A stretch of DNA of 15,962 nt, taken from positions 1 through 15,962 of the forward strand of contig CAZWVL010000015.1 in NCBI GenBank assembly GCA_964637115.1. Direction: 5' to 3'. Every line of letters begins with the position of its first letter. Positions within the stretch are counted from its first letter, which is position 1. This stretch comes from an uncultured Methanosarcinales archaeon. Its GTDB lineage: Archaea > Nanobdellota > Nanobdellia > Woesearchaeales > ARS49. Both the position numbers and the translations under genes were made by a program. Under the pieces are notes generated by a model. It saw only the letters and a list, made by a program, of their open reading frames with translations, ran no database searches and was not told the DNA's origin. Below are positions 2,290 to 12,290 of this stretch, piece after piece.

Positions 2290-2360
2290 TTCTGATAAGC
2301 AAGGGTTTTAAGACGGTAAAAAACAAAACTTTAAATTTAGAGGATGTTCTGACCAATAAA

Positions 2361-2717
2361 ATGCTACCGCCTCATACACTGACAGACGTCATCAATAATA
2401 TTATTGACTTTCTGTTTGATTATCCGGGAGACTTGGTAGATTGGAACTGTTTGCCCGTCGGGAAGAATTTTGAAATGGATTTACTTTCAGGAAAGTCGAA
2501 TAATGACTTTTTTAAAGAATCTGCCATAAGATTGAGTGAATTCTTATTCGGTGAATTACAGGAAATTGATTTTCCTCTGGGAGATTTGAAAAAAGCAACA
2601 CTTTCTGGTTCTGCAAGTTCTGGCGTGTCTCGGGTAAAAATAGTTATTCTTCTTAAATCAGGCAAGGAATACTCAAAGGAACACGTTGTTCATCATGAAT
2701 CACCCAAGCAAGCTTAA
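2361..2717 (+). CDS. Hypothetical protein (118 aa), probably leaderless
   Basis: ORF fills the gap after rps10; TTTAAAT at 2330-2336 is 25-31 nt before the ATG. No family recognised. Confidence 0.7.
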   Translation: MLPPHTLTDVINNIIDFLFDYPGDLVDWNCLPVGKNFEMDLLSGKSNNDFFKESAIRLSEFLFGELQEIDFPLGDLKKATLSGSASSGVSRVKIVILLKSGKEYSKEHVVHHESPKQA

Positions 2718-2744
2718 TTAAGCAACAATTATTTCCAGTTCAGA

Positions 2745-2825
2745 ATGCAACACTGCGAAGAATGCGGTATGACTGGGCCTGTGTGCAAGGGCTGTAACAA
2801 GTGTCCGTCGTGCTGTACGTGCTAG
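2745..2825 (+). CDS. Cys-rich micropeptide MQHCEECGMTGPVCKGCNKCPSCCTC (26 aa, 8 Cys); metallothionein-like or zinc-binding candidate. Not in ORF track
   Basis: Hand translation of ATG 2745 to TAG 2823-2825; pattern CxxC-x6-CxxCxxCxxCCxC; fills the gap up to the ZIP gene; TTAATTAA at 2714-2721 sits at TATA distance. Confidence 0.7.
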   Translation: MQHCEECGMTGPVCKGCNKCPSCCTC

Positions 2826-3577
2826 CGCACAAATACCGTCATCGCCCAGATGACCGCTACTCCAAGTAAGAAAAAGAATAATTGCTGGAACGCTTTCTGA
2901 ATATTGCGCTCTTTGTGCAGTTCTGGTAAAAGATCTGCACTTGCAATATAAATAAATCCGCCTGCTGCAAATGGAACTAAGAACGCGCTCAGGTTGCCGA
3001 ACACTATGCTGAAATAAAAGACTGCCAGTGCTCCAAGTATTGCCGTGAGTGCCGACAGGAAATTGAAAAATAATGCTTTTCCTCTGGACAATCCTCCGAA
3101 TATGAGTATTCCGAAATCTCCCAGTTCTTGTGGTATTTCGTGCAAGACAACCGCTACTGTTGTCGCAATGCCAACAGGAATGCTTGCCAGATAACCAGCC
3201 GCTATTATCATTCCGTCAACAAAGTTGTGGATGGCGTCTCCAAACAAATTGAGCCAGGCGAACGGATGCACTTTCTTGTGTGTTGCGTGGTGATGGTGAT
3301 GCCCATAGTGGCAGTGATACCAATAAAGGAATGTTTCAATGATGTAAAATACCAACACTCCTACAAGTGCATAAACAAAAATTGGCCCGCCTGTTGTTTC
3401 GAGTGATTCTGGCAGCAAATCAAGGAATGCTGCTCCCAGCAATGCTCCTGCCGCAAAGCTTACCAGTCCAAACAAAATCTTGTCAAGCAATTTTGGTCGC
3501 AAATAAAGTGTTAGTACACCGACAAATGATACTAAGCTGACAAGAATGACTGATACCAAGATGTATGTTAAAACCAT
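2822..3577 (-). CDS. ZIP family divalent metal (Zn/Fe/Mn) transporter
   Basis: About 8 hydrophobic segments; TM4 HNFVDG and TM5 HEIPQELGD motifs; His-rich loop HCHYGHHHHHATH. Confidence 0.95.
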   Translation of the reverse strand: MVLTYILVSVILVSLVSFVGVLTLYLRPKLLDKILFGLVSFAAGALLGAAFLDLLPESLETTGGPIFVYALVGVLVFYIIETFLYWYHCHYGHHHHHATHKKVHPFAWLNLFGDAIHNFVDGMIIAAGYLASIPVGIATTVAVVLHEIPQELGDFGILIFGGLSRGKALFFNFLSALTAILGALAVFYFSIVFGNLSAFLVPFAAGGFIYIASADLLPELHKERNIQKAFQQLFFFLLGVAVIWAMTVFVR

Positions 3578-3597: not shown

Positions 3598-3636
3598 TAT
3601 ATAAAAATCTTTGGTACTTCTAAAAAGGATTAAATA
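3598..3636. promoter_or_regulatory. Back-to-back TATA boxes for ZIP (- strand, 3598-3605) and NUDIX-yvcK (+ strand, 3630-3636)
   Basis: TTTATATA on - is 21-28 nt from ZIP ATG 3577; TTAAATA on + is 23-29 nt from ATG 3659. Both fit leaderless starts. Confidence 0.5.
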
Positions 3637-3658
3637 CCCCCCTATTTCATTTTACGCT

Positions 3659-4186: not shown

Positions 4187-5124
4187 AAGTTGTCGTTATC
4201 GGCGGCGGAACCGGCAGTTTCACAGTATTAAGAGGATTAAAAAATAAAGTAGATGACCTCAGTGCCGTTGTTACCATGTTTGACAGCGGCGGCTCTACCG
4301 GTCTTTTAAGAGACGAATTCGGCATCCTGCCTCCTGGTGATGTCAGGCGTTGCCTTATCGCATTGGCAGACGAAAACGACAATGTTCTCAGGCAGTTGTT
4401 TATTTTCCGTTTCGACGAGCACAGCAGCCTGCAGGGCCATTCTTTCGGCAATCTTTTCCTTACTGCATTGACAGAACTTACTGGCAGCGAAGCAGAAGCT
4501 ATCAGGCAGGCTTCAAAGGTTCTCCGCATTAAAGGCAGGGTTCTTCCTGTTTCGTTTGACAACTGCCACGTTTGCGCAGAACTTGAGAACAAGCAGATTA
4601 TCAAGGGTGAAACAAACATCGATATTCCTCAGCACGATCCGAATTTGCGCATTATGAAAGCTTGGCTTGAGCCTGAGGCAAAGGCAAATCCCGAAGCAAT
4701 CCAGGCGATAAAAAATGCTGATTTGGTCGTCATAGGTCCTGGAGACTTATTCTCAAGCATTGTTCCCAATTTATTGGTCAAAGGTGTTACTGAAGCGTTG
4801 AAATCTACAAAAGCAAAGAAGGTTTTTGTGTGCAGTCTGATGACTAAATATGGAGAAACAACCGGTTACAAAGCATCTGATTACTTGAAAGAAATTATCA
4901 AGTACGGCGGCTCTCCAGATGTCATTCTTTGCAACTCTGCAAAGGGCAATCCTGTTTTGCTGAAGAAGTACGCCAGCCAGAATCAGTTTCCAGTGCAGGT
5001 TGACGAAAAGGAAATCGCAAAGACCGGCGTGAAATTAGTAACAGGCGACGTGATGTCCGCTCCTGAACTTATCCGTCACGATAGTGAGAAGTTGGCAAAC
5101 GCGTTAATCAAGCTGGCCCAGTAA
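4183..5124 (+). CDS. yvcK: YvcK/GlmR (UPF0052, CofD-related) family protein
   Basis: KVVVIGGGTG, DSGGSTGLLR, LPPGDVRRCL, GHSFGNL, GPGDLFSSIVPNL, RHDSEKLA; ATGA overlap with the NUDIX gene. Confidence 0.9.
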   Translation: MKVVVIGGGTGSFTVLRGLKNKVDDLSAVVTMFDSGGSTGLLRDEFGILPPGDVRRCLIALADENDNVLRQLFIFRFDEHSSLQGHSFGNLFLTALTELTGSEAEAIRQASKVLRIKGRVLPVSFDNCHVCAELENKQIIKGETNIDIPQHDPNLRIMKAWLEPEAKANPEAIQAIKNADLVVIGPGDLFSSIVPNLLVKGVTEALKSTKAKKVFVCSLMTKYGETTGYKASDYLKEIIKYGGSPDVILCNSAKGNPVLLKKYASQNQFPVQVDEKEIAKTGVKLVTGDVMSAPELIRHDSEKLANALIKLAQ

Positions 5125-5443
5125 GTTCGTTTATTTTCGCTGCAAGAATGAAATCATTCTCGCTCAGTCCCTTGATGGCGTGAGTTATCATCTCTAAAGT
5201 TATCGTGTTCCAATACCAATGTATGTCTGGGTGGTGTCCTTCTGCTTCTGCTAAAAACTTGATTTTCTCCAGCCACGAGCTTGCTTCAACAAAATCTGCA
5301 AACTTCCAGGTGCGGTGTAACTTGCCGTCTACAATCTTCCATCCTTGTACTTTTGGCAGAAGTTTTTCTATCTGAACTTTTGTCAGCGACTGTACGCCTC
5401 CTTCACACGGCTCGCATTTCTTTTTAGTTAAATCAGTGCTCAT
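5108..5443 (-). CDS. phhB: Pterin-4-alpha-carbinolamine dehydratase
   Basis: CEPCEGG N-terminus, W.F.DF..A, AEAEGHHPDI, THAIKGLSENDFILAAKIN. Confidence 0.93.
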   Translation of the reverse strand: MSTDLTKKKCEPCEGGVQSLTKVQIEKLLPKVQGWKIVDGKLHRTWKFADFVEASSWLEKIKFLAEAEGHHPDIHWYWNTITLEMITHAIKGLSENDFILAAKINELTGPA

Positions 5444-6227
5444 GGTTCTTCTCGACCGAATGTTTGATGAAGACTATGAGTGCAAGCAGCACTACTAATG
5501 TGACGAGCGAGGCAAGCGTAATGGTCGGCATTGCAATGCGTTGTTCTGTAAAGGTGAACTCTATCATCCAGACGCCCATTACAATAAGGAGTACGCCGGT
5601 AAACAACCGCATGAGTCCTTTATGTTTTTGACGCCAGTTCTCAAAGTGTTTCCAATGGATGCCTTTGTAGACCATGAAAAGTATTAGGATAAGCGGTACG
5701 ACAAAAATCAGATTGTAAATGACAAGGAAGCTAATATTGCCAACGGTAACGCCGCTCAATGACATTAGTGCAAGAACTGCTAAATATACCGCTCCCGTGC
5801 ACGGCAGTTCAACAAGTGCAACAAATGTTCCAAGGAATGCAGAAGTGTACCACTTGTCTCCAACGTGTTTGACGTATTTTTTGATGCGTGCTGCTTCTGA
5901 CGGGAAAATCGTTAAACTGAATCCTTTTCCGTACCAGAAGTAGTCTTTTATTTCTATTAGTCCGGCAAGAACAACAAGCCCGGCTATAACATAGTATGAT
6001 GCGACCGAGAATCCTGCCAGTTTTCGGATGATTGGCAAAAGTATCAGTCCGCATACTAGATATGTTAGAAACACGAAAAAAATGTAGACAAGGCCGTTTA
6101 AGAGCATCTTGCGCTTGGCAGTTTTTGCCAGGTAGGCGAGCATGAAGATAAGTACTCCAAATGCGCAGGGGTTGATTCCGTCAATTAATGCTGCGCCTAC
6201 TATGATTGGAAGGCTTATTTCGCTCAT
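5433..6227 (-). CDS. CcdA/DsbD transmembrane-domain-like protein (GAP/CcdA-related)
   Basis: Polytopic membrane protein with two Pro-Cys motifs, DGINPCAF and ELPCTGAVY, placed like the redox Cys pair of CcdA/DsbD-beta. Confidence 0.8.
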   Translation of the reverse strand: MSEISLPIIVGAALIDGINPCAFGVLIFMLAYLAKTAKRKMLLNGLVYIFFVFLTYLVCGLILLPIIRKLAGFSVASYYVIAGLVVLAGLIEIKDYFWYGKGFSLTIFPSEAARIKKYVKHVGDKWYTSAFLGTFVALVELPCTGAVYLAVLALMSLSGVTVGNISFLVIYNLIFVVPLILILFMVYKGIHWKHFENWRQKHKGLMRLFTGVLLIVMGVWMIEFTFTEQRIAMPTITLASLVTLVVLLALIVFIKHSVEKNHEH

Positions 6228-6230
6228 AAA

Positions 6231-6284
6231 CTAGCAAAACTCGCAGACGTTTTTCTTTGCTTTCTTCTTCTTTTTTGGTGCCAT
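6231..6284 (-). CDS. 17-aa micropeptide MAPKKKKKAKKNVCEFC (poly-Lys plus C-terminal CxxC). Not in ORF track
   Basis: Hand translation; GAGG SD in the 11 nt between the upstream stop (6296) and this ATG (6284); its TAG ends 3 nt before the next ATG (6227). Confidence 0.65.
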   Translation of the reverse strand: MAPKKKKKAKKNVCEFC

Positions 6285-6295
6285 GATTGCCTCTT

Positions 6296-6832
6296 TTAGC
6301 TAAAAGTAATTAGTATCTCATCATCATCTTTCCAGACGTACTTGTCGAATTCGGTGCTTGGTTGTTCGTTGACAAACATTCTTACTGTTCCTGGTTTTCC
6401 ATCTGGGCATGCATCGCCGTTGCAATAGTTTGCAATGCAGCGTTCATTGAATCTGATGTCAAAATCGTTCATTAGTGTTCCTAATTGTAATGGGGTTGTT
6501 TCCAGCAGTTTGCCGCTGACCGGGTCATATGGCAGTCGTTCGTGGAAATGTACGTAATTGCGTTCTTTATGAGTGTGTGACGTCTCTAGCGGGCCGTGTT
6601 CTAATGGCATGCTGATGCTCTTGCCGCATATGTCAAAGTGTATGCCCATATGGATGTGGAATGTTTTGACGCATTTGTCCGGTCCGCATACTTCAAATTC
6701 TTCGACGCTTTCCTGGTTCTCGATAACATACCAGACTGAATATGCAATGTAGATTAAAACTATGACTGCTGCTATGTAGCCAGCCGTTATCCACGGATTC
6801 CTCTTTTTCTTCCATATGTCTTTGCGTGCCAT
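6296..6832 (-). CDS. Membrane-anchored His/Cys-rich exported protein of unknown function (178 aa)
   Basis: Basic N-terminus followed by one TM helix; motifs HIHMGIH, HTH and HFH; 6 Cys; TTAATAAA on - at 6857-6864, about 25 nt upstream. Confidence 0.85.
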   Translation of the reverse strand: MARKDIWKKKRNPWITAGYIAAVIVLIYIAYSVWYVIENQESVEEFEVCGPDKCVKTFHIHMGIHFDICGKSISMPLEHGPLETSHTHKERNYVHFHERLPYDPVSGKLLETTPLQLGTLMNDFDIRFNERCIANYCNGDACPDGKPGTVRMFVNEQPSTEFDKYVWKDDDEILITFS

Positions 6833-6907
6833 CTGTCTTTAAATGCACTTTGCTCTTTTATTAATGTTGTGGTAAGATTTATATGCCAAGACAGCATGAA
6901 AACATCC

Positions 6908-7117
6908 ATGGGGATTGTTTCAAAACTTAATTCGTGGGTGGTTGAGGGTATTGCCGCAGTGGTTTTGGTATCGTGTACAGGCTGCCCGACTGGTCAGATT
7001 TCTGACAATGAAAAGCGCGCATTTGACACAGAAATATATCAGAATAATCTGCGCCAGTCGCAAAGATTTGGCGCTTCAGGAAACGTATACCGCCCAACCT
7101 ACGCTCAGGATAAGTAA
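6908..7117 (+). CDS. Putative small lipoprotein (69 aa; start re-called from 6869)
   Basis: TTTATAT at 6878-6884 is 24-30 nt before ATG 6908; hydrophobic stretch ends in lipobox-like VLVSC; stop lies next to the tRNA 3' end. Confidence 0.5.
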   Translation: MGIVSKLNSWVVEGIAAVVLVSCTGCPTGQISDNEKRAFDTEIYQNNLRQSQRFGASGNVYRPTYAQDK

Positions 7118-7118
7118 A

Positions 7119-7202
7119 CGCGGCCGCCCGGATTTGAACCGGGAAATCCTTTCGGAAACCGGTTTTCAAGACCGGCGCAGTACCGGGTTGTGCCACGGCC
7201 GC
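7119..7202 (-). tRNA. trnS: tRNA-Ser(UGA), class II, no intron, CCA not encoded
   Basis: Acceptor GCGGCCG/CGGCCGC plus G73; anticodon arm CCGGT-CTTGAAA-ACCGG; variable arm TCC-GAAA-GGA; T arm CCCGG-TTCAAAT-CCGGG. Confidence 0.98.
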
Positions 7203-7227
7203 ATAAGAAGGTTATCGTTCTCAGGGC

Positions 7228-7235
7228 TTTTTAAA
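7228..7235 (-). promoter_or_regulatory. TATA box of tRNA-Ser (TTTAAAAA)
   Basis: 26-33 nt upstream of the tRNA 5' end. Confidence 0.6.
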
Positions 7236-7240
7236 CCTTA

Positions 7241-8422
7241 TCACACTTTTTTGAGCATCCGCTTTAGAACAAAAGGCGATATGAGCGTTGAAACTGCTGC
7301 CATGAAGATGAGTGAGGAAAAAATAGTGCTGGTAATTACACCGGCTGCAAGGGCAATTTGTGCAATGACAAGGCCCGTGTCTCCTTTTGCGTTCATCGCC
7401 CAGCCTACAATCCATCCTTCTTTCCAGTTGCGGACAATCATATGATATCCTAAGGCGCTGCCGACTACCGTGCCGGCAATGGCAAGAATGGTAATTAGAA
7501 CATTGAACCAGATGTTTTCCCATATGGCAAGCACGTTTGTCTGGAGGCCGATAAAAAGGAAAAAGAATGGAACAAGGAAGCCGAAGGCAATTGTGTGAAC
7601 TGAATGCATGATTTCTGTCCGCTCCCATGGAAAATGCCCGGGTTCCTTGAACAGTACCTGCCGCACTATAACCCCGCTGAAAATTGCTCCAATCAGTGCT
7701 CCAACGCCAAGATAGTCTGCGAGAACTGCCATGACGAGTGTGATGATAAGTGCTCCCGTAAACAGCTGCGCATGTTCTGGCTGTCCTTCAATTCTTTTGA
7801 TTACAAAGGGAATAATCCAGAACCTGAAAATTGTGACAATGCCTGCAAACAATATCACGCCGTACAAAAGTTGCAGCAGGGTTGTTTGCTTGATTGCCGT
7901 TTCAAGAAAAGTAAGTACTCCTGTGATGAGAAACAGCTCAACCATGTCGTCAAAAGTTCCTGCGCTGGCGATAAGCACGCCAATTTTGGTTCGCAGTTTG
8001 TTGAATTCTTCAAGCAGGTCAAGTGCGATTGCTGTTGCGCTGACGCTCATGCAGATGCCAACAATAATGCTGGTGCTGTTGTCTAAGGAAAACACGTACC
8101 TGCTGGCAAGGTATCCCAAAATAAGCGGCAGGCTGGTGTTGAAAAAAGAAATCCACGCGCTGCAGACAATGTTTTTCTTGAACTGTTTGAAGCTGACTTG
8201 CAGTCCGACAAAGAAAAGAAGCAGGATAAGGCCGACATCTGCAAGGAATTTCACCAGCGCCATGCTTTCTGTGGTAAAGAGGTAATGGCTGATTGCTGGA
8301 AGCCCAAGAATTATGCCTGCGCCAATCTGGCTTACGGCGCGGGGCACTGAAAATGTGCGCAGCACTTCAGAGAGGATATATATGACAATGAGACAGACAA
8401 GAACAGCAACTAATGGATTCAT
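7241..8422 (-). CDS. Cation:proton antiporter, CPA2 (NapA/KefB-like), no C-terminal KTN domain
   Basis: 393 aa, highly hydrophobic; QIGAGIILG, LLFFVGL, SVSATAI, GTFDD, IGAIFSG, MNAKG motifs; SD GAGGTGA. Confidence 0.92.
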   Translation of the reverse strand: MNPLVAVLVCLIVIYILSEVLRTFSVPRAVSQIGAGIILGLPAISHYLFTTESMALVKFLADVGLILLLFFVGLQVSFKQFKKNIVCSAWISFFNTSLPLILGYLASRYVFSLDNSTSIIVGICMSVSATAIALDLLEEFNKLRTKIGVLIASAGTFDDMVELFLITGVLTFLETAIKQTTLLQLLYGVILFAGIVTIFRFWIIPFVIKRIEGQPEHAQLFTGALIITLVMAVLADYLGVGALIGAIFSGVIVRQVLFKEPGHFPWERTEIMHSVHTIAFGFLVPFFFLFIGLQTNVLAIWENIWFNVLITILAIAGTVVGSALGYHMIVRNWKEGWIVGWAMNAKGDTGLVIAQIALAAGVITSTIFSSLIFMAAVSTLISPFVLKRMLKKV

Positions 8423-8483
8423 ATATTCACCTCTTTAAATACCATCAAATTATGATTGTATATAAATATGGCGAAACAATACA

Positions 8484-8491
8484 TTTATATA
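8484..8491 (+). promoter_or_regulatory. TATA box (TTTATATA) for the CxxC-x17-CxxC gene
   Basis: Predicts a TSS near 8516, where a hairpin begins; SD GGGTGA at 8555-8560. Confidence 0.45.
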
Positions 8492-8568
8492 GTCCCCCAT
8501 ATCACATATACTCAGTATACAGAGACTAGTTCTCGTCGTATAACTAACACAACCGGGTGAATAAGAAA

Positions 8569-8724
8569 ATGGGATTCGGAAACGATTTTGGCGCTCCACG
8601 TGAGATGCACGATGCAACGTGCTCTGAATGTGGACAACAGACCAAGGTTCCTTTCAAGCCAACTGAAGGAAAACCAGTCTATTGCCGAGAATGCTACGCA
8701 AAACGCAAGCCTCGACGCTTCTAA
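8569..8724 (+). CDS. CxxC-x17-CxxC domain protein (51 aa; zinc ribbon, probable nucleic-acid binder). Not in ORF track
   Basis: MGFGNDFGAPREMHDATCSECGQQTKVPFKPTEGKPVYCRECYAKRKPRRF; exact CxxC-x17-CxxC spacing with the VPFKP and PVYC..C hallmarks; SD GGGTGA. Confidence 0.95.
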   Translation: MGFGNDFGAPREMHDATCSECGQQTKVPFKPTEGKPVYCRECYAKRKPRRF

Positions 8725-8747
8725 GTTAAACTACTAACGTTTAACTT
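8723..8747. repeat. Perfect 9-bp inverted repeat AAGTTAAAC-N7-GTTTAACTT
   Basis: Seen directly; followed by T-rich 8755-8780 (terminator or ahpC promoter). Confidence 0.7.
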
Positions 8748-8800
8748 CACAAACTTTTTATTTTTCTTTCATTTTTCTTCATAGAACGGGGGTAGATGCC

Positions 8801-9367
8801 ATGAGCTTATTTGTAGGAAAACCAGCACCAGAATTTATTGCAGAAGCATTTCAGAACAATAAAACTGTCAAGATTAACTTGAAAGATTACCGCGGAAAAT
8901 GGGTAATTCTTGCATTCTATCCTGCTGACTTCACTTTTATCTGTCCGACAGAGCTTGGAGAATTGGCTGACATGTATGAGGCTTTCAAGAAGATGAACGC
9001 TGAAATTCTTTCTGTCAGCACTGATACTACCTTTGTGCACAAGGCATGGCACGATAACTCTCCTACAATAAAGCAAATCAAGTATCCGATGATTGCGGAT
9101 CCAACAAGAACTATCTGCACTGCGTACGGCTCTCTTATTGAAAACGATGGTCTTTCTCAAAGATGCACTGTCATCATTGACCCTAAGGGTATTGTAAAGT
9201 CGTATGACATTCATGATAACAGTATTGGCAGAAGTGCATACGAAATCATGCGCCGTTTGCAGGCAGCCCAATTTGTCTCAAAGAACCCTGGCTTGGTCTG
9301 CCCTGCTTCATGGAAGCCTGGCAGCAAGACCCTGAAACCCGGTCTTGACTTGGTTGGCAAGATTTAA
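8801..9367 (+). CDS. ahpC: 2-Cys peroxiredoxin (AhpC/Prx1)
   Basis: FYPADFTFICPTEL (peroxidatic Cys), IGRS..EI.R, VCPASW (resolving Cys); SD GGGGGT. Confidence 0.96.
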   Translation: MSLFVGKPAPEFIAEAFQNNKTVKINLKDYRGKWVILAFYPADFTFICPTELGELADMYEAFKKMNAEILSVSTDTTFVHKAWHDNSPTIKQIKYPMIADPTRTICTAYGSLIENDGLSQRCTVIIDPKGIVKSYDIHDNSIGRSAYEIMRRLQAAQFVSKNPGLVCPASWKPGSKTLKPGLDLVGKI

Positions 9368-9393
9368 TAACCTTTTAATTAATTTCATTCTTA

Positions 9394-9678
9394 ATGAAAA
9401 ATCTGGTCTGGTATCTCTTCGCAGGCACACGTGGCGGCGAGACAAGAGTTCTTATTGTTACTTCATTGAAGAAAAAGCCGATGAACATGCACCAGCTGGC
9501 AAAACTGCTGAATCTTGATTACAAAACAGTACAGCATCATATTCGCATCTTGCTTGATAACCGGATTATTACGGCAATTAATAAAGGCAAATACGGCGCT
9601 GTCTACTTCATTTCTGATGAAATGGAGAGATTATGGAATGATTTCCGTGTAATTTGGAAGAGATTTGGGAAAAAGTAG
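9394..9678 (+). CDS. Winged helix-turn-helix transcriptional regulator (ArsR-like)
   Basis: LFAGTRGGETR..I..L...PMN..QLAK.L.LDYKTVQHHI..L..N.II, wing KYG.VYF. Confidence 0.88.
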   Translation: MKNLVWYLFAGTRGGETRVLIVTSLKKKPMNMHQLAKLLNLDYKTVQHHIRILLDNRIITAINKGKYGAVYFISDEMERLWNDFRVIWKRFGKK

Positions 9679-9705
9679 TTAAATGAGATTTAGGAGGAAA
9701 ACACC

Positions 9706-9990
9706 ATGGAATTCGTGATGAAAGCAACGTTTGTGCTGACGGCAGTGAATATGATATTACTGCTGATGCTGGCATTTGTGTATGGCAAAAACTGGGTGAA
9801 AATACGTTCCGCATTTACCACCGGGTTGCTGCTGTTCACAGTGGCGTTTTTGGCTCAGTATGCGATGTCGTTTTACTTTTACGTCACCAGCATGAACTAC
9901 TTTGTTGAGATAGTCAGCATGCACGTGTTCATCCTGACAATATTGCAAACAATTGCTTTCACCGTATTGAACGCGATTTCCTGGAGCTGA
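9706..9990 (+). CDS. Small integral membrane protein (about 3 TM) next to the wHTH
   Basis: 94 aa, three hydrophobic segments, basic loop KNWVKIRSAFTTGL; SD AGGAGG. Confidence 0.85.
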   Translation: MEFVMKATFVLTAVNMILLLMLAFVYGKNWVKIRSAFTTGLLLFTVAFLAQYAMSFYFYVTSMNYFVEIVSMHVFILTILQTIAFTVLNAISWS

Positions 9991-9993
9991 AAA

Positions 9994-10557
9994 ATGAAAC
10001 AATACGTACTCGTTGCATTGTTGGTATTGCTGGTAGCGTGCGCGCCGACAAAGCAGATGATGGGCGAGACTCCTGAGCAGAAAACGATGGAAAAAGAGGC
10101 TATGGAAAAGGGCGACTGGACTGCCGAACAGATGGAGCAGATGAAAAAAGATGAAATGATGGAAAAAGACAGCGTGCCTGAAGGCAGGATGATGGAGCCT
10201 GGTTTGATTGGCGGCGGCACATCAAGATATTACAACTGGGACAAGACCATGTTTGACAAGGCTGTTGCTGAAGGAAAAACTATTTATTTGGAATTCTCTG
10301 CCGACTGGTGTGGTATTTGCCAGAAGCAGGAACCGCACTTGATTGCTGCATTCAGTGAATTAAATGACCCGAATGTTGTTGGTTTCAAGATTCATTACAA
10401 GGATGACCAGACAACTCCTGAGCATGCAGCATTGGCACAGCAATACCAGATTGCTTACCAGCACACCAAAGTTGTTCTGAAGAATGGCCAAATCGTGAAG
10501 AAGAGCCCTGAAGCCTGGACAAAGGACAAATTCCTGCAGGAAATGAGGAGTCTCTAA
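9994..10557 (+). CDS. Thioredoxin-fold lipoprotein with Met-rich linker
   Basis: Lipobox LVAC (Cys16); 10 Met in residues 22-67; active site FSADWCGIC. Confidence 0.9.
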   Translation: MKQYVLVALLVLLVACAPTKQMMGETPEQKTMEKEAMEKGDWTAEQMEQMKKDEMMEKDSVPEGRMMEPGLIGGGTSRYYNWDKTMFDKAVAEGKTIYLEFSADWCGICQKQEPHLIAAFSELNDPNVVGFKIHYKDDQTTPEHAALAQQYQIAYQHTKVVLKNGQIVKKSPEAWTKDKFLQEMRSL

Positions 10558-11259
10558 ATGGCTGAAATTTCTTTTTTTATTGCTTTTATTGCGGGCATTA
10601 TTTCATTCTTCGCTCCGTGCATACTTCCATTAATTCCAGCATTCCTGGGCTTTTTGGCCGGTCAGAAAGTTGAACAGACGTCCCGTTGGAAATTGTTTGG
10701 CCACAGTTTCTTGTTTGTACTCGGCTTTGGCACGGTATTTTCAATTGTTGGCGTCTTGCTCAACAGCATTCTTGCGAATGTCGCATATACAACGCAGACG
10801 TGGCTGGGCCGTGTTGCAGGCGTCATCATCATCCTGTTCGGATTTTACCTGCTTGGTTTTATCAAGCCCGAATTTTTACAGAGAGAACACAAGTTCAGAG
10901 TTCCCAAGATTGGCAATCGTGCAGTATCAAGTTTCTTGTTTGGTGCTGCATTTGCCGTTGGCTGGACGCCTTGTGTTGGTGCTGTGCTTGGCTCGATTCT
11001 TGCGCTTGCAACAGCAATGCCCAGTGATGCGTTTGGACTGCTTTTGTCGTATTCATTGGGCTTAGGCATTCCGTTTCTGATAGTTGGTTTGTTTGCCCAT
11101 AATTTCATTGCGTGGATCCAGAAGCACGGCACATTCCTAAAATATTTCAACATTGTTGTCGGCTTGCTGGTTGTTGCGCTCGGTATATTAGTTTTCACAA
11201 ACAAACTCGCATTAGTGGCAGGCAGCTTTAACTTCCTGAACAGGTTTTTACTGGGATGA
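10558..11259 (+). CDS. ccdA: CcdA (cytochrome c biogenesis / transmembrane electron transporter)
   Basis: SFFAPCILPLIP and GWTPCVGAVL motifs, YSLGLGIPF, about 6 TM; ATG directly follows the upstream stop. Confidence 0.94.
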   Translation: MAEISFFIAFIAGIISFFAPCILPLIPAFLGFLAGQKVEQTSRWKLFGHSFLFVLGFGTVFSIVGVLLNSILANVAYTTQTWLGRVAGVIIILFGFYLLGFIKPEFLQREHKFRVPKIGNRAVSSFLFGAAFAVGWTPCVGAVLGSILALATAMPSDAFGLLLSYSLGLGIPFLIVGLFAHNFIAWIQKHGTFLKYFNIVVGLLVVALGILVFTNKLALVAGSFNFLNRFLLG

Positions 11260-12290
11260 AAAAAATCTGGTTTGTTGTTTTGCTGGCGCTCGTAATAGCT
11301 TCAATTATTTACTTGCAAGAACCTTCAAAAGAGGTCGAGCGTGTTTCTCCTGCTGTGCAAAAGAAGAACGGCATTCCTGCGCCTGAACTCGCAGGCATTG
11401 CCGGCTATATTAATGCCGATAATATCACAATCAGCAGTCTTGTTGGCAAAAAGGTAATTCTCATTGACATTTGGACGTACAGCTGCATTAACTGCCAGCG
11501 TACTCTGCCCTATCTTACCATGTGGCACGACAAATACAAGGACAAAGGTCTCGAAATTATCGGCGTTCATTCTCCTGAGTTTGAGTTTGAGAAAAAGTAC
11601 GAAAATGTCAAGCGTGCTGTTGAGAAGTTTGGAATTAAATATCCTGTTGTTTTAGATAACGACCATGCAACATGGAATGCATTTATGAATCGCTATTGGC
11701 CGAGAAAATATCTGATTGATATTGATGGATACATTGTCTGGGATCATATTGGTGAAGGCGGCTATAAAGAAGCAGAAAGGAAAATTCAGGAACTGTTGGA
11801 AGAGCGTGCGACAAAGCTGGGCATGACTGAAGGTATTCCAACAGAAGTCTCTGAAGTTAAAGCACCAAAAGTCGAGTTTATGAGAATTGGCACTCCTGAA
11901 ATCTATCTGGGCTATGAATTTACAAGAGGAAACTTTGGCAACAAGGAAGGTTTGCCAGCAAGACAGGAAATGACGTATATGCTTCCATCATCAATTTCAT
12001 CAAACAACGTCTACTTGGAAGGAACTTGGTTTGTTGACACTGACCACGTACGTTTAGTAAGCGAAACTGGCAAAGTTATTCTCAAATACAACGCAAAGAA
12101 CGTGAACATAGTTGCTTCTGGCAATCCCGGCTCTGACATAGCAATAAATGTTGATGACAAAGTAATTAGCTCTCAAAAAGTCGACGTAGAAGACCTTTAT
12201 ACGTTGGTTGACTCTGAATACGGCCAGCATACTTTGTCATTTGACGTGAAAGGTTCTGGCTTCAAACTATATACGTTCACATTCGGATAA
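11256..12290 (+). CDS. Membrane-anchored TlpA-like redoxin with DipZ-like C-terminal domain
   Basis: N-terminal TM; WTYSCINCQRTLP, IIGVHSPEFEFEK, NRYWP..YLID..G; C-terminal TPEIYLGY ... YTFTFG, as in DipZ-type proteins. Confidence 0.9.
   Translation: MKKIWFVVLLALVIASIIYLQEPSKEVERVSPAVQKKNGIPAPELAGIAGYINADNITISSLVGKKVILIDIWTYSCINCQRTLPYLTMWHDKYKDKGLEIIGVHSPEFEFEKKYENVKRAVEKFGIKYPVVLDNDHATWNAFMNRYWPRKYLIDIDGYIVWDHIGEGGYKEAERKIQELLEERATKLGMTEGIPTEVSEVKAPKVEFMRIGTPEIYLGYEFTRGNFGNKEGLPARQEMTYMLPSSISSNNVYLEGTWFVDTDHVRLVSETGKVILKYNAKNVNIVASGNPGSDIAINVDDKVISSQKVDVEDLYTLVDSEYGQHTLSFDVKGSGFKLYTFTFG

What the first reader, a model, noticed from the sequence alone, without database searches (positions are those of the whole stretch)
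2745..2825. Unannotated 26-aa, 8-Cys metallothionein-like peptide interlocked tail-to-tail with a ZIP transporter
Seen: ATG CAA CAC TGC GAA GAA TGC ... TGC TGT ACG TGC TAG encodes MQHCEECGMTGPVCKGCNKCPSCCTC. It is 31% Cys, has no aromatic residues, follows CxxC-x6-CxxCxxCxxCCxC, uses both Cys codons (5 TGC, 3 TGT) and is GC-richer than the window's intergenic DNA. Its stop (TAG 2823-2825) and the ZIP stop (2822-2824, - strand) share one CTAG. TTAATTAA lies 24-31 nt upstream, which fits a leaderless mRNA. Established: metallothioneins are short, Cys-rich, aromatic-poor Zn/Cu/Cd binders (bacterial SmtA, MymT), and ZIPs import divalent metals. I know of no characterised archaeal metallothionein of this size. 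Inference: a minimal archaeal metal-buffer peptide (2-3 ions) paired with an importer; overlapping 3' ends may also allow antisense coupling.
Basis: partly seen in the sequence, partly recalled or inferred. Interest (0 to 1): 0.85.

Follow-up and report, generated by a model that had tools for sequence, protein, structure and literature searches.

The report
Conserved eight-cysteine archaeal microprotein gene
A 26-residue, eight-cysteine peptide gene that gene callers miss is real and conserved in a group of tiny DPANN (Woesearchaeales) archaea; it probably binds metal ions and in this genus sits beside the cell's only detected ZIP or ZnuABC-type metal importer, but its metal and role are untested.

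Summary
The ORF at 2745-2825 is a real gene under purifying selection. Intact homologues of 26-30 aa occur in 7 of 15 genomes of the genus, 3 metagenome contigs, and at least three other lineages of the same order, including 11 of 61 genomes of one family. Only the eight Cys and one Gly are invariant. Every Cys column switches between TGC and TGT. Variable sites by codon position are 11/10/21. dN/dS is 0.02-0.09 between close pairs. The stop stays in the same place while its codon changes.

The family matches no Pfam or NCBIfam model and no protein among 1.84 billion representatives.

In this genus the gene always sits at the 3' end of the only ZIP importer. In one genome ZIP has been replaced by an ArsR-like regulator plus ZnuABC, and the peptide gene was kept as the first gene of that operon. 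Outside the genus this link to an importer is absent. In another family the recurring neighbours are transketolase and a flavoprotein disulfide reductase.

Best reading: a new metal-thiolate microprotein, probably binding zinc. It is like a metallothionein in composition but belongs to no known metallothionein family. A small two-zinc finger, or an Fe or thiol-redox protein, remains a live rival. This scan earlier noted a different Cys-rich microprotein family in Woesearchaeota (e1-976491).

The parts
2714..2721 (+). TATA-like box (TTAATTAA) of the microprotein gene, 24-31 nt upstream of the ATG; it contains the stop codon of the non-conserved ORF118
   Evidence: An A/T box at the same distance (-32 to -22), with no Shine-Dalgarno site, is present in the four other closest orthologues. 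Promoter function is inferred.
2745..2825 (+). Cys8 microprotein gene (26 codons plus TAG)
   Evidence: Orthologues are intact. Eight Cys and one Gly are invariant. Third-position variation and low dN/dS indicate purifying selection.
2822..2825 (.). CTAG shared by the two convergent stop codons (peptide TAG 2823-2825; ZIP stop 2822-2824 on the - strand)
   Evidence: The same 4-nt overlap is seen in G006, G013, L023 and L024, but not in G003, G007 or G011.
2822..3577 (-). ZIP-family divalent-metal importer (251 aa, His-rich loop); the only ZIP found in this genome
   Evidence: Pfam PF02535, E 2.6e-43. Best NCBIfam hit is ZupT, below cut-off. Single locus in G000.
3602..3611 (-). TATA-like box of the ZIP gene, about 25-34 nt upstream of its ATG
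   Evidence: An A/T-rich box at this position is conserved in all 13 aligned ZIP upstream regions. Function is inferred.
2636..2640 (-). First run of five or more T downstream of the ZIP stop on its own strand (possible terminator). If used, the ZIP 3' UTR would run antisense across the whole microprotein gene.
   Evidence: The + strand has no run of five or more T between 2600 and 3700, so the peptide transcript may in turn read antisense into ZIP. Inference only.

Best explanation
Shown by comparison: the ORF is a real, independently transcribed and translated 26-aa microprotein. It founds a previously unannotated family of 26-30 aa proteins confined, as far as searched, to the DPANN order Woesearchaeales.

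Inferred: the family's only invariant residues are eight Cys and the Gly of a CxxCG knuckle, and everything else is hydrophilic and variable. Its function is therefore most likely metal-thiolate binding itself rather than recognition of a specific partner. The first four Cys probably form a Zn(Cys)4 knuckle pair. The dense C-terminal CxxCxxCC-x-C block would bind a second ion, or possibly a second and third in a bridged cluster.

Inferred for this genus: the gene lies at the cell's only detected ZIP or ZnuABC-type importer locus. It most likely works as a small cytosolic acceptor or buffer for the imported divalent metal, probably Zn2+ and less likely Fe2+. That is metallothionein-like behaviour without membership of any known metallothionein family.

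Speculative: the convergent 3' overlap with ZIP could add mutual transcriptional interference.
For: The gene is real.
- Intact orthologues occur in 7 of 15 genus genomes, 3 metagenome contigs, G185, G084 and four f94 genomes, and 11 of 61 f94 genomes by HMM.
- All eight Cys columns flip between TGC and TGT. Variable sites by codon position are 11/10/21. The stop is TAG, TGA or TAA at one position.
- dN/dS is 0.02-0.09 for close pairs.

Expression signals.
- A TATA-like box at -31 to -22 in one subgroup, and a TATA box plus GGGGGTG or AGGTGA Shine-Dalgarno site in the others.

Metal-binding character.
- The invariant residues are 8 Cys plus 1 Gly only.
- Two AF2 models (pLDDT 82 and 86.7) give a knuckle hairpin.
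- All best structural neighbours, though not significant, are zinc modules. Ribosomal S14 aligns over 23 residues at rmsd 1.3-1.5 A; the rest are FYVE, PHD, MYND, RING and HVO_2753.
- ESM Atlas neighbours (all below 0.9) include a 'putative Metallothionein' cluster, LIM and HVO_2753_ZBP.

Link to the importer.
- The order S10, variable region, peptide, ZIP (convergent), Nudix, CofD is conserved in 8 loci, while the upstream region is replaced by unrelated genes in every genome.
- In G005, ZIP is replaced by DUF2061, an ArsR/SmtB-like HTH protein and ZnuA/C/B. The peptide gene is kept, with its stop 1 nt before the next ATG.
- G000 has one ZIP and no ZnuA. G005 has ZnuA and no detected ZIP.
- A Fur-family regulator and a 7-1-7 box lie beside ZIP in three relatives.
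Against: - There is no experimental evidence of expression or metal binding.
- The importer link rests on one inherited arrangement plus one replacement event within a single genus, so the loci are not independent.
- In six other lineages examined, ZIP lies elsewhere and the neighbours are unrelated.
- In family f94 the recurring neighbours are transketolase and a flavoprotein disulfide reductase. This points to thiol redox rather than metal import.
- Half of the genus keeps ZIP without the peptide.
- A gene beside an importer is not the usual place for a sequestering metallothionein. smtA, for example, sits beside its repressor smtB.
- The second half also fits CxxC(G)xCxxxC, the ferredoxin motif. 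Weak Fer4 and PsaC matches exist (Pfam Fer4 E 0.7-2.7; PsaC chains E about 9).
- The neighbouring Fur-family regulator scores best with Fur and PerR models and worst with Zur.
Confidence: 0.45

Rival explanations
1. It is a structural two-zinc mini zinc finger, either cross-braced or two sequential Cys4 sites. It acts on a macromolecular partner such as a regulator, RNA, ribosome or transporter, like the C(P)xCG zinc-finger microproteins of Haloferax. The metal would be only a scaffold.
For: The CxxCG knuckle is invariant. AF2 gives a hairpin with pLDDT 82-87. The nearest structures, though not significant, are S14, FYVE, PHD, RING, MYND and HVO_2753. The ESM Atlas lists HVO_2753_ZBP and LIM clusters. 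The varied genomic contexts outside the genus fit a general-purpose small regulator.
Against: No non-Cys residue except one Gly is conserved across 15 aligned members, and the Cys2-Cys3 spacer varies from 6 to 9 residues. That leaves almost no conserved surface for a specific partner. There is no hit to PF07754 or any zinc-finger family.
Confidence: 0.2
2. It is a redox microprotein: an Fe(Cys)4 (rubredoxin or desulforedoxin-like) or Fe-S mini-ferredoxin, or a thiol/disulfide relay or sink serviced by a disulfide reductase.
For: Cys3 to Cys7 fit CxxC(G)xCxxxC, and the only Pfam and PDB sequence matches are Fer4 domains and PsaC (Pfam Fer4 E 0.7-2.7; PsaC chains E about 9). In f94 the gene repeatedly lies convergent to a dihydrolipoyl-dehydrogenase or mycothione-reductase-like flavoprotein. 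The regulator beside ZIP in relatives is more Fur/PerR-like, with a Fur-type box. Earlier scan note e1-976491 places another Woesearchaeal Cys-rich microprotein between a thioredoxin reductase and a ferredoxin (not checked here).
Against: All Fer4 matches are far below significance. The Pro that normally follows the fourth Cys is missing. The peptide is hydrophilic, with too few hydrophobic or aromatic residues to shield a cubane or a rubredoxin-type centre (inference from known ferredoxin and rubredoxin structures). Eight Cys in 23 residues is too compact for two cubanes.
Confidence: 0.2
3. It is a precursor of a ribosomally made, post-translationally modified or secreted Cys-rich peptide, such as a sactipeptide or ranthipeptide, or a metallophore.
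For: It is short, the Cys-rich part is C-terminal, and its distribution across lineages is sporadic. A radical-SAM-like gene lies about 4 kb away in G084.
Against: No maturase, protease or exporter lies next to any of the loci examined. No SPASM-domain protein is found anywhere in G000. No NCBIfam RiPP precursor family matches. There is no leader: only 3-6 residues precede the first Cys.
Confidence: 0.03
4. It is not a protein gene. The conserved sequence would be a 3' UTR or antisense RNA element of ZIP, or a chance ORF.
For: It overlaps the ZIP 3' end. Cys-rich six-frame ORFs are not rare in this genome (49 of 35,982).
Against: The codon-position pattern, synonymous Cys flips, low dN/dS and conserved start and stop all argue for coding. 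It is present without ZIP in G005, G185, G084 and f94. Rfam finds nothing significant (one JUMPstart hit far below its gathering score).
Confidence: 0.02

Closest known systems
Metallothioneins, especially the smallest ones (fungal Cu-MTs of about 25 aa) and bacterial SmtA/BmtA (my own knowledge of the family definitions)
   Same: Very small, about 30% Cys, CxxC and CC motifs, few or no aromatic residues, hydrophilic variable residues between invariant Cys, and a location in a metal-homeostasis locus in this genus. In G005 an ArsR/SmtB-like regulator is in the same operon.
   Different: No sequence match to any metallothionein Pfam family. It uses CxxC rather than CxC spacing and has a CxxCG knuckle. 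It sits beside importers rather than beside a metal-induced repressor or efflux system. Several members carry Tyr or Phe. Metal-thiolate clusters have not been shown.
Archaeal zinc-finger microproteins with C(P)xCG motifs (e.g. Haloferax volcanii HVO_2753; PDB 6ydh appears)
   Same: Archaeal, under 60 aa, CxxCG knuckle, predicted beta-hairpin zinc-ribbon-like core, and missed or poorly annotated by gene callers.
   Different: Half the size. Only the first knuckle is of the CxxCG type. The last five Cys form a dense CxxCxxCC-x-C block not seen in those proteins. No PF07754 match. No conserved surface residues.
[4Fe-4S] ferredoxin motif CxxCxxCxxxCP (Pfam Fer4 families; PsaC)
   Same: Cys3, 4, 5 and 7 reproduce CxxCxxCxxxC, often with Gly after the second of these Cys.
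   Different: E-values of 0.7-9 are not significant. There is no Pro after the fourth Cys, no second motif, no hydrophobic shell, and the length is 26-30 aa against 55 or more.
Zn-binding ribosomal protein S14 (Thermus, PDB 1fjg chain N)
   Same: It is the best structural superposition of both AF2 models: 23 residues, rmsd 1.3-1.5 A, TM about 0.57 normalised to the query. This suggests a Cys4 knuckle pair in the N-terminal half.
   Different: Foldseek E is 3-6, so not significant. VIA-align finds nothing at Z of 2 or more. There is no sequence relationship and no ribosomal context beyond lying downstream of S10.

Membership tests
Metallothionein (operational definition) | Low molecular mass and very high Cys content in CxC/CxxC/CC motifs | tested here: met
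   26 aa with 8 Cys (31%) in CxxC and CC motifs. This holds in all 15 aligned members.
Metallothionein (operational definition) | Aromatic residues absent or scarce | tested here: inconclusive
   There are none in the window's peptide. Tyr or Phe is present in G006, G185 and most f94 members.
Metallothionein (operational definition) | High metal content bound in metal-thiolate clusters | not testable with these tools
   This needs metal titration with ESI-MS and 113Cd NMR on the peptide.
Known metallothionein sequence families (Pfam MT families, including bacterial SmtA type) | Significant match to a family profile | tested here: not met
   hmmscan of all members at E up to 10 returns no metallothionein family. 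It returns only non-significant matches: four Fer4 families, and also zf-C2H2_FBX41 and UPF0547. NCBIfam returns none.
4Fe-4S ferredoxin (Fer4) | CxxCxxCxxxCP motif with a profile score over the cut-off | tested here: not met
   The motif is present only if Cys7 is counted as the fourth ligand, and there is no Pro. Best Pfam E is 0.73. PsaC gives E about 9.
Archaeal C(P)xCG zinc-finger microproteins (HVO_2753_ZBP, PF07754) | Two or more C(P)xCG knuckles and a match to the family profile | tested here: not met
   There is one invariant CxxCG, and the second knuckle is Cx[GKDE]C. PF07754 gives no hit. Only an ESM Atlas lead at 0.81.
Radical-SAM-matured RiPP precursors (SCIFF, ranthipeptide, sactipeptide) | Adjacent or co-occurring radical SAM/SPASM maturase and a match to a precursor family | tested here: not met
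   No SPASM domain in G000. No maturase next to the loci examined. No NCBIfam precursor family matches.

The most novel reading that the evidence does not exclude
This is the founding member of the first archaeal metallothionein family and the smallest prokaryotic one. It would be a 26-aa peptide that wraps a Zn-thiolate cluster of 2-3 ions. In this genus it would be wired to the cell's only importer by fully overlapping convergent transcription, so that uptake and buffering are expressed as a toggle, in a genome with no detectable Fur/Zur regulator.
Probability: 0.15. Interest if true: 0.8.

Novelty: new variant of a known kind. Interest (0 to 1): 0.6.

Why it matters
No characterised archaeal metallothionein turned up. 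The phrase 'archaeal metallothionein' occurs in none of about 8.4 million searchable papers. DPANN archaea have tiny genomes, and little of their metal and redox homeostasis is understood.

This family falls at or below the usual 30-codon gene-caller cut-off. It is absent from 1.84 billion protein representatives. Yet it is under strong purifying selection across several families of Woesearchaeales.

Its size makes it chemically tractable. It can be synthesised and titrated with metals directly, so the question of what metal buffer or thiol system these reduced archaea use becomes testable.

Together with an earlier scan finding of another Cys-rich microprotein family in the same order, it suggests that standard annotation hides a layer of Cys-rich microproteins.

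Tried and rejected
- Pfam and NCBIfam scans of all members gave only non-significant matches: four Fer4 families, plus zf-C2H2_FBX41 and UPF0547 for one member each.
- The PDB sequence profile search gave nothing significant.
- An exhaustive HMM search of 1.84 billion protein representatives gave 0 hits, so no fused or longer forms were detected.
- Foldseek on two AF2 models gave only E above 3. VIA-align wide gave nothing at Z of 2 or more.
- Model coordinates could not be read, so Cys-Cys distances and the pairing of ligands are unknown.
- Rfam on 2290-2900 gave only a sub-threshold chance hit.
- The RNA-element and chance-ORF readings were rejected on codon evidence.
- The RiPP reading was rejected for lack of any maturase.
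- No remnants of the gene were found in peptide-less genus members, and none of the orthologues found is disrupted.
- A Fur-type box was sought in the window and not found beyond chance. No FUR-family gene was found in G000, nor in G005, G011, G003 or G007 with the G006 protein as query.
- The first DNA pattern search at order level gave mostly low-complexity noise and one true new hit.
- Literature searches found nothing on archaeal metallothioneins or this motif.

Full report
OBSERVATION

Window 2745-2825 (+) translates to a 26-residue peptide ending in TAG. Its Cys lie at positions 4, 7, 14, 17, 20, 23, 24 and 26, giving CxxC-x6-CxxC-xx-C-xx-CC-x-C. It has no F, W or Y, and uses 5 TGC and 3 TGT codons.

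- The ATG at 2745 is the only possible start after the upstream in-frame stop at 2715-2717.
- The ZIP gene on the - strand is 2822-3577 including its stop, so the two stop codons share CTAG at 2822-2825.
- TTAATTAA is at 2714-2721, 24-31 nt upstream of the ATG.
- The ORF has 54% GC, against 29-30% in four intergenic gaps of the window.

All stated facts are therefore correct. Cys-richness alone is weak evidence. In the six-frame translation of this 1.27-Mb genome, 49 of 35,982 stop-to-stop segments have at least 8 Cys in a 26-residue window.

IS IT A GENE?

Yes. A DNA search of relatives found the ORF conserved at up to 89% nucleotide identity, more than the neighbouring ZIP at 72-77%. Six-frame scans then found intact orthologues at the same place.

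Across ten sequences from the genus and from metagenomes:
- every one of the eight Cys columns uses both TGC and TGT;
- variable sites by codon position are 11, 10 and 21 of 23 codons;
- the stop is TAG, TGA or TAA at exactly the same position.

Nei-Gojobori dN/dS is 0.02-0.09 for close pairs, and synonymous sites are near saturation. This pattern excludes a conserved RNA element or a chance ORF. Rfam finds nothing significant in 2290-2900 (one JUMPstart hit at 17 bits, far below its gathering score of 35).

EXPRESSION SIGNALS (inferred)

The five closest sequences (G000, G005, G006 and two metagenome contigs) have an A/T-rich TATA-like box at about -32 to -22 from the ATG and no Shine-Dalgarno site. 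This is as expected for a leaderless archaeal mRNA. The second subgroup (G003, G007, G011, G013 and one metagenome contig) has a TATA-like box further upstream, plus GGGGGTG or a similar site at -14 to -7. The G185 homologue has AGGTGA. Two different but appropriate solutions support an independently expressed gene.

ORGANISM AND DISTRIBUTION

Public records holding the orthologues are titled Candidatus Nanoarchaeia or Woesearchaeota archaeon. One record carries a Methanosarcinales label on DNA whose peptide ORF and upstream frame read identically to those of G011.

- An HMM of the peptide finds it in 7 of 15 genomes of the genus and in 0 of 62 genomes of 28 other genera of the family. The genus tally includes G010, an unpublished genome, as a non-match.
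- Three JGI metagenome contigs carry it.
- DNA patterns encoding the Cys spacing found true homologues in another family of the order (G185).
- They also found one in another genus of the same family (G084) and four in family f94.
- None was found in about 120 genomes of other orders of the class.
- An HMM search within f94 finds it in 11 of 61 genomes, once as two tandem paralogues.
- In the 15-sequence alignment the only invariant columns are the eight Cys and the Gly after Cys2. The Cys2-Cys3 spacer varies from 6 to 9 residues, and some members have 1-3 extra C-terminal residues.
- The exhaustive profile search of 1.84 billion protein representatives returns nothing. Pfam and NCBIfam return no family.

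The family is therefore unannotated and, as far as searched, confined to Woesearchaeales. These are samples, so 'not found' does not mean 'absent'.

CONTEXT IN THIS GENUS

The gene order is EF-1alpha, S10, a variable region, the peptide, ZIP (convergent), Nudix, CofD. It is conserved in eight loci.

- The S10-to-peptide region holds different, mutually unrelated genes in every genome. The window's ORF118 (2361-2717) has no Pfam match and no counterpart in relatives. The peptide-ZIP junction stays put.
- The 4-nt stop overlap is seen in 5 of 8 ZIP-linked loci. The others have gaps of 1, 14 and 114 nt.
- Genus members without the peptide have S10 and ZIP adjacent or separated by other genes, with no remnant of the ORF.
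- On a ZIP tree the peptide-bearing genomes fall in one clade. That clade has support of 86/98 and also contains the peptide-less G009, and G001 whose contig ends at ZIP. A sister clade of four genomes lacks the peptide.
- In G005 the ZIP gene has been replaced, between the peptide gene and Nudix, by a DUF2061 membrane protein, an HTH protein and ZnuA, ZnuC and ZnuB. The best NCBIfam hit for the HTH protein is the ArsR/SmtB metalloregulator family, below cut-off.
- All of these are co-directional with the peptide gene, whose stop lies 1 nt before the next ATG.
- The G005 peptide differs from the window's by one residue, so the native gene was retained and the new cassette was fused behind it.
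- G000 has a single ZIP and no ZnuA. G005 (83% complete) has ZnuA and no detected ZIP.

In G006, G013 and G012 a 121-122-aa Fur-family regulator (PF01475, E 1e-18 to 1e-21) is transcribed divergently from ZIP. A Fur-type 7-1-7 palindrome lies between them, perfect (TGATAATGATTATCA) in G012. Its best NCBIfam hits, all below cut-off, are Fur and PerR; Zur is the weakest. G000 has no FUR-family gene and no such box.

The locus is thus a regulated divalent-metal uptake locus. Zinc is favoured by the His-rich ZIP loop and by ZupT, AdcA and AztC being the best hits, all below cut-off. Iron is not excluded.

CONTEXT OUTSIDE THE GENUS

In G084 and four f94 genomes, ZIP genes lie on other contigs or 24 kb away. 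G185 has no detected ZIP at all. Immediate neighbours are unrelated: FHA, bPH_2, MarR-like HTH, CYTH, metK and unknown membrane proteins.

Family f94 shows a recurrent arrangement in G498, G466 and G656, and in part in G667 and G643. Its elements are:
- the transketolase C-terminal subunit;
- sometimes another Cys-rich ORF;
- the Cys8 gene;
- a convergent flavoprotein disulfide reductase, whose best hits are dihydrolipoyl dehydrogenase and mycothione reductase, below cut-off.

The link to an importer is therefore specific to one genus. A thiol-redox theme appears elsewhere.

STRUCTURE

AF2 with the family alignment gives pLDDT 82 for a 35-aa construct with 9 non-native N-terminal residues, and 86.7 for the 30-aa G498 member. 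Both show a short beta hairpin or bridge around the first two Cys pairs.

Foldseek finds nothing significant (E of 3 or more). The listed neighbours are almost all zinc modules. Zn-type ribosomal S14 is the best superposition for both models (23 residues, rmsd 1.3-1.5 A); the rest are FYVE, PHD, MYND, RING and HVO_2753. VIA-align finds nothing at Z of 2 or more. ESM Atlas neighbours score below 0.9 and are leads only: hypothetical clusters, a 'putative Metallothionein' cluster, LIM and HVO_2753_ZBP.

The only sequence resemblance is to the ferredoxin motif. Cys3, 4, 5 and 7 fit CxxC(G)xCxxxC, with Fer4 at E 0.7-2.7 and PsaC at E about 9. None of these is significant.

MECHANISM

Shown: this is a translated, selected microprotein whose only constrained residues are eight Cys and a knuckle Gly.

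Inferred: the function is metal-thiolate coordination itself. The likely arrangement is a Zn(Cys)4 knuckle pair plus a second site or a bridged cluster in the C-terminal block. The hydrophilic, aromatic-poor composition argues against a shielded Fe-S or rubredoxin centre.

In this genus the peptide was retained at the only importer locus through a change of transporter. That suggests it receives or buffers the imported ion.

The + strand has no run of five or more T across ZIP. The first T5 on the ZIP strand lies beyond the peptide gene. The two transcripts may therefore overlap fully, which would allow mutual interference. This is speculation.

I put 0.45 on the metallothionein-like buffer or acceptor reading. 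I put 0.2 on a structural two-zinc finger with a partner, 0.2 on an Fe or thiol-redox role, 0.03 on a RiPP precursor and 0.02 on 'not a gene'. The remaining 0.1 is left for readings not considered here.

COMPARISON AND NOVELTY

The peptide meets the compositional definition of a metallothionein. It matches no metallothionein family, and metal clusters are untested, so it should not be filed as one. It is not a member of Fer4, of the C(P)xCG microprotein family, or of any RiPP precursor family.

No paper in the searchable library mentions an archaeal metallothionein.

Verdict: a new family of a known general kind, Cys-rich metal-binding microproteins, and of moderate to high interest.

CAVEATS

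- The genus loci are related to one another and do not count as independent observations.
- Genome samples are partial.
- G010 (counted as a non-match) and G282 (a noise hit, not used) are unpublished genomes.

Noticed in passing
L014:2442-2810 (+), L019:278-643 (-), L012:1078-1446 (-); box at L012:1450-1464: In G006, G013 and G012 a 121-122-aa Fur-family regulator (PF01475) lies between ZIP and Nudix, divergent from ZIP. A Fur-type 7-1-7 palindrome sits over its own presumed leaderless start. The window's genome has neither the gene nor the box.
   Followed up: yes
L020:229-3341 (G005): The ZIP gene is replaced in situ by DUF2061, an HTH protein (HVO_0163-like N-terminal domain plus an ArsR/SmtB-like wHTH) and ZnuA/ZnuC/ZnuB. 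This is a swap of one metal importer type for another at one locus.
   Followed up: yes
window 2290-2744, with the equivalent S10-to-peptide regions of L013, L014, L015, L017, L019, L023 and L024: This is a hypervariable insertion spot downstream of S10. Each genome carries different, mutually unrelated ORFs there. The window's ORF118 (2361-2717) has no Pfam match and no counterpart in relatives, so its reality is uncertain.
   Followed up: partly
L071:1308-1691; L072:1618-1872; L062:7403-8749; L074:3-1298: In family f94 the Cys8 gene recurs between a transketolase subunit and a convergent flavoprotein disulfide reductase. G656 has two tandem Cys8 paralogues. A second, unrelated Cys-rich ORF with an FICPTC motif lies just upstream in G656 and G667.
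   Followed up: partly
L022 (CAZTVK010000017.1): A contig labelled 'uncultured Methanosarcinales archaeon' carries a peptide ORF and upstream open frame that read identically to those of the Woesearchaeal genome G011. The taxonomic label of that MAG looks wrong.
   Followed up: no
window 3611-3656: The Nudix ORF is listed from TTG 3611. Orthologues start at the Met that corresponds to ATG 3656 (MKE..DIVDAHD). The ZIP-Nudix divergent intergenic region is therefore about 78 nt and holds the ZIP TATA-like box.
   Followed up: partly
L058:11149-12261 (G084): A radical-SAM-like gene (CxxxCxxC near the N-terminus) lies about 4 kb from the Cys8 gene in G084, separated from it by unrelated genes on both strands. 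It is probably coincidental.
   Followed up: no
window 5108-12290: The rest of the window is dense in thiol-redox genes: two CcdA-like membrane proteins, AhpC, thioredoxin-like lipoproteins and a pterin dehydratase with a CxxC.
   Followed up: no
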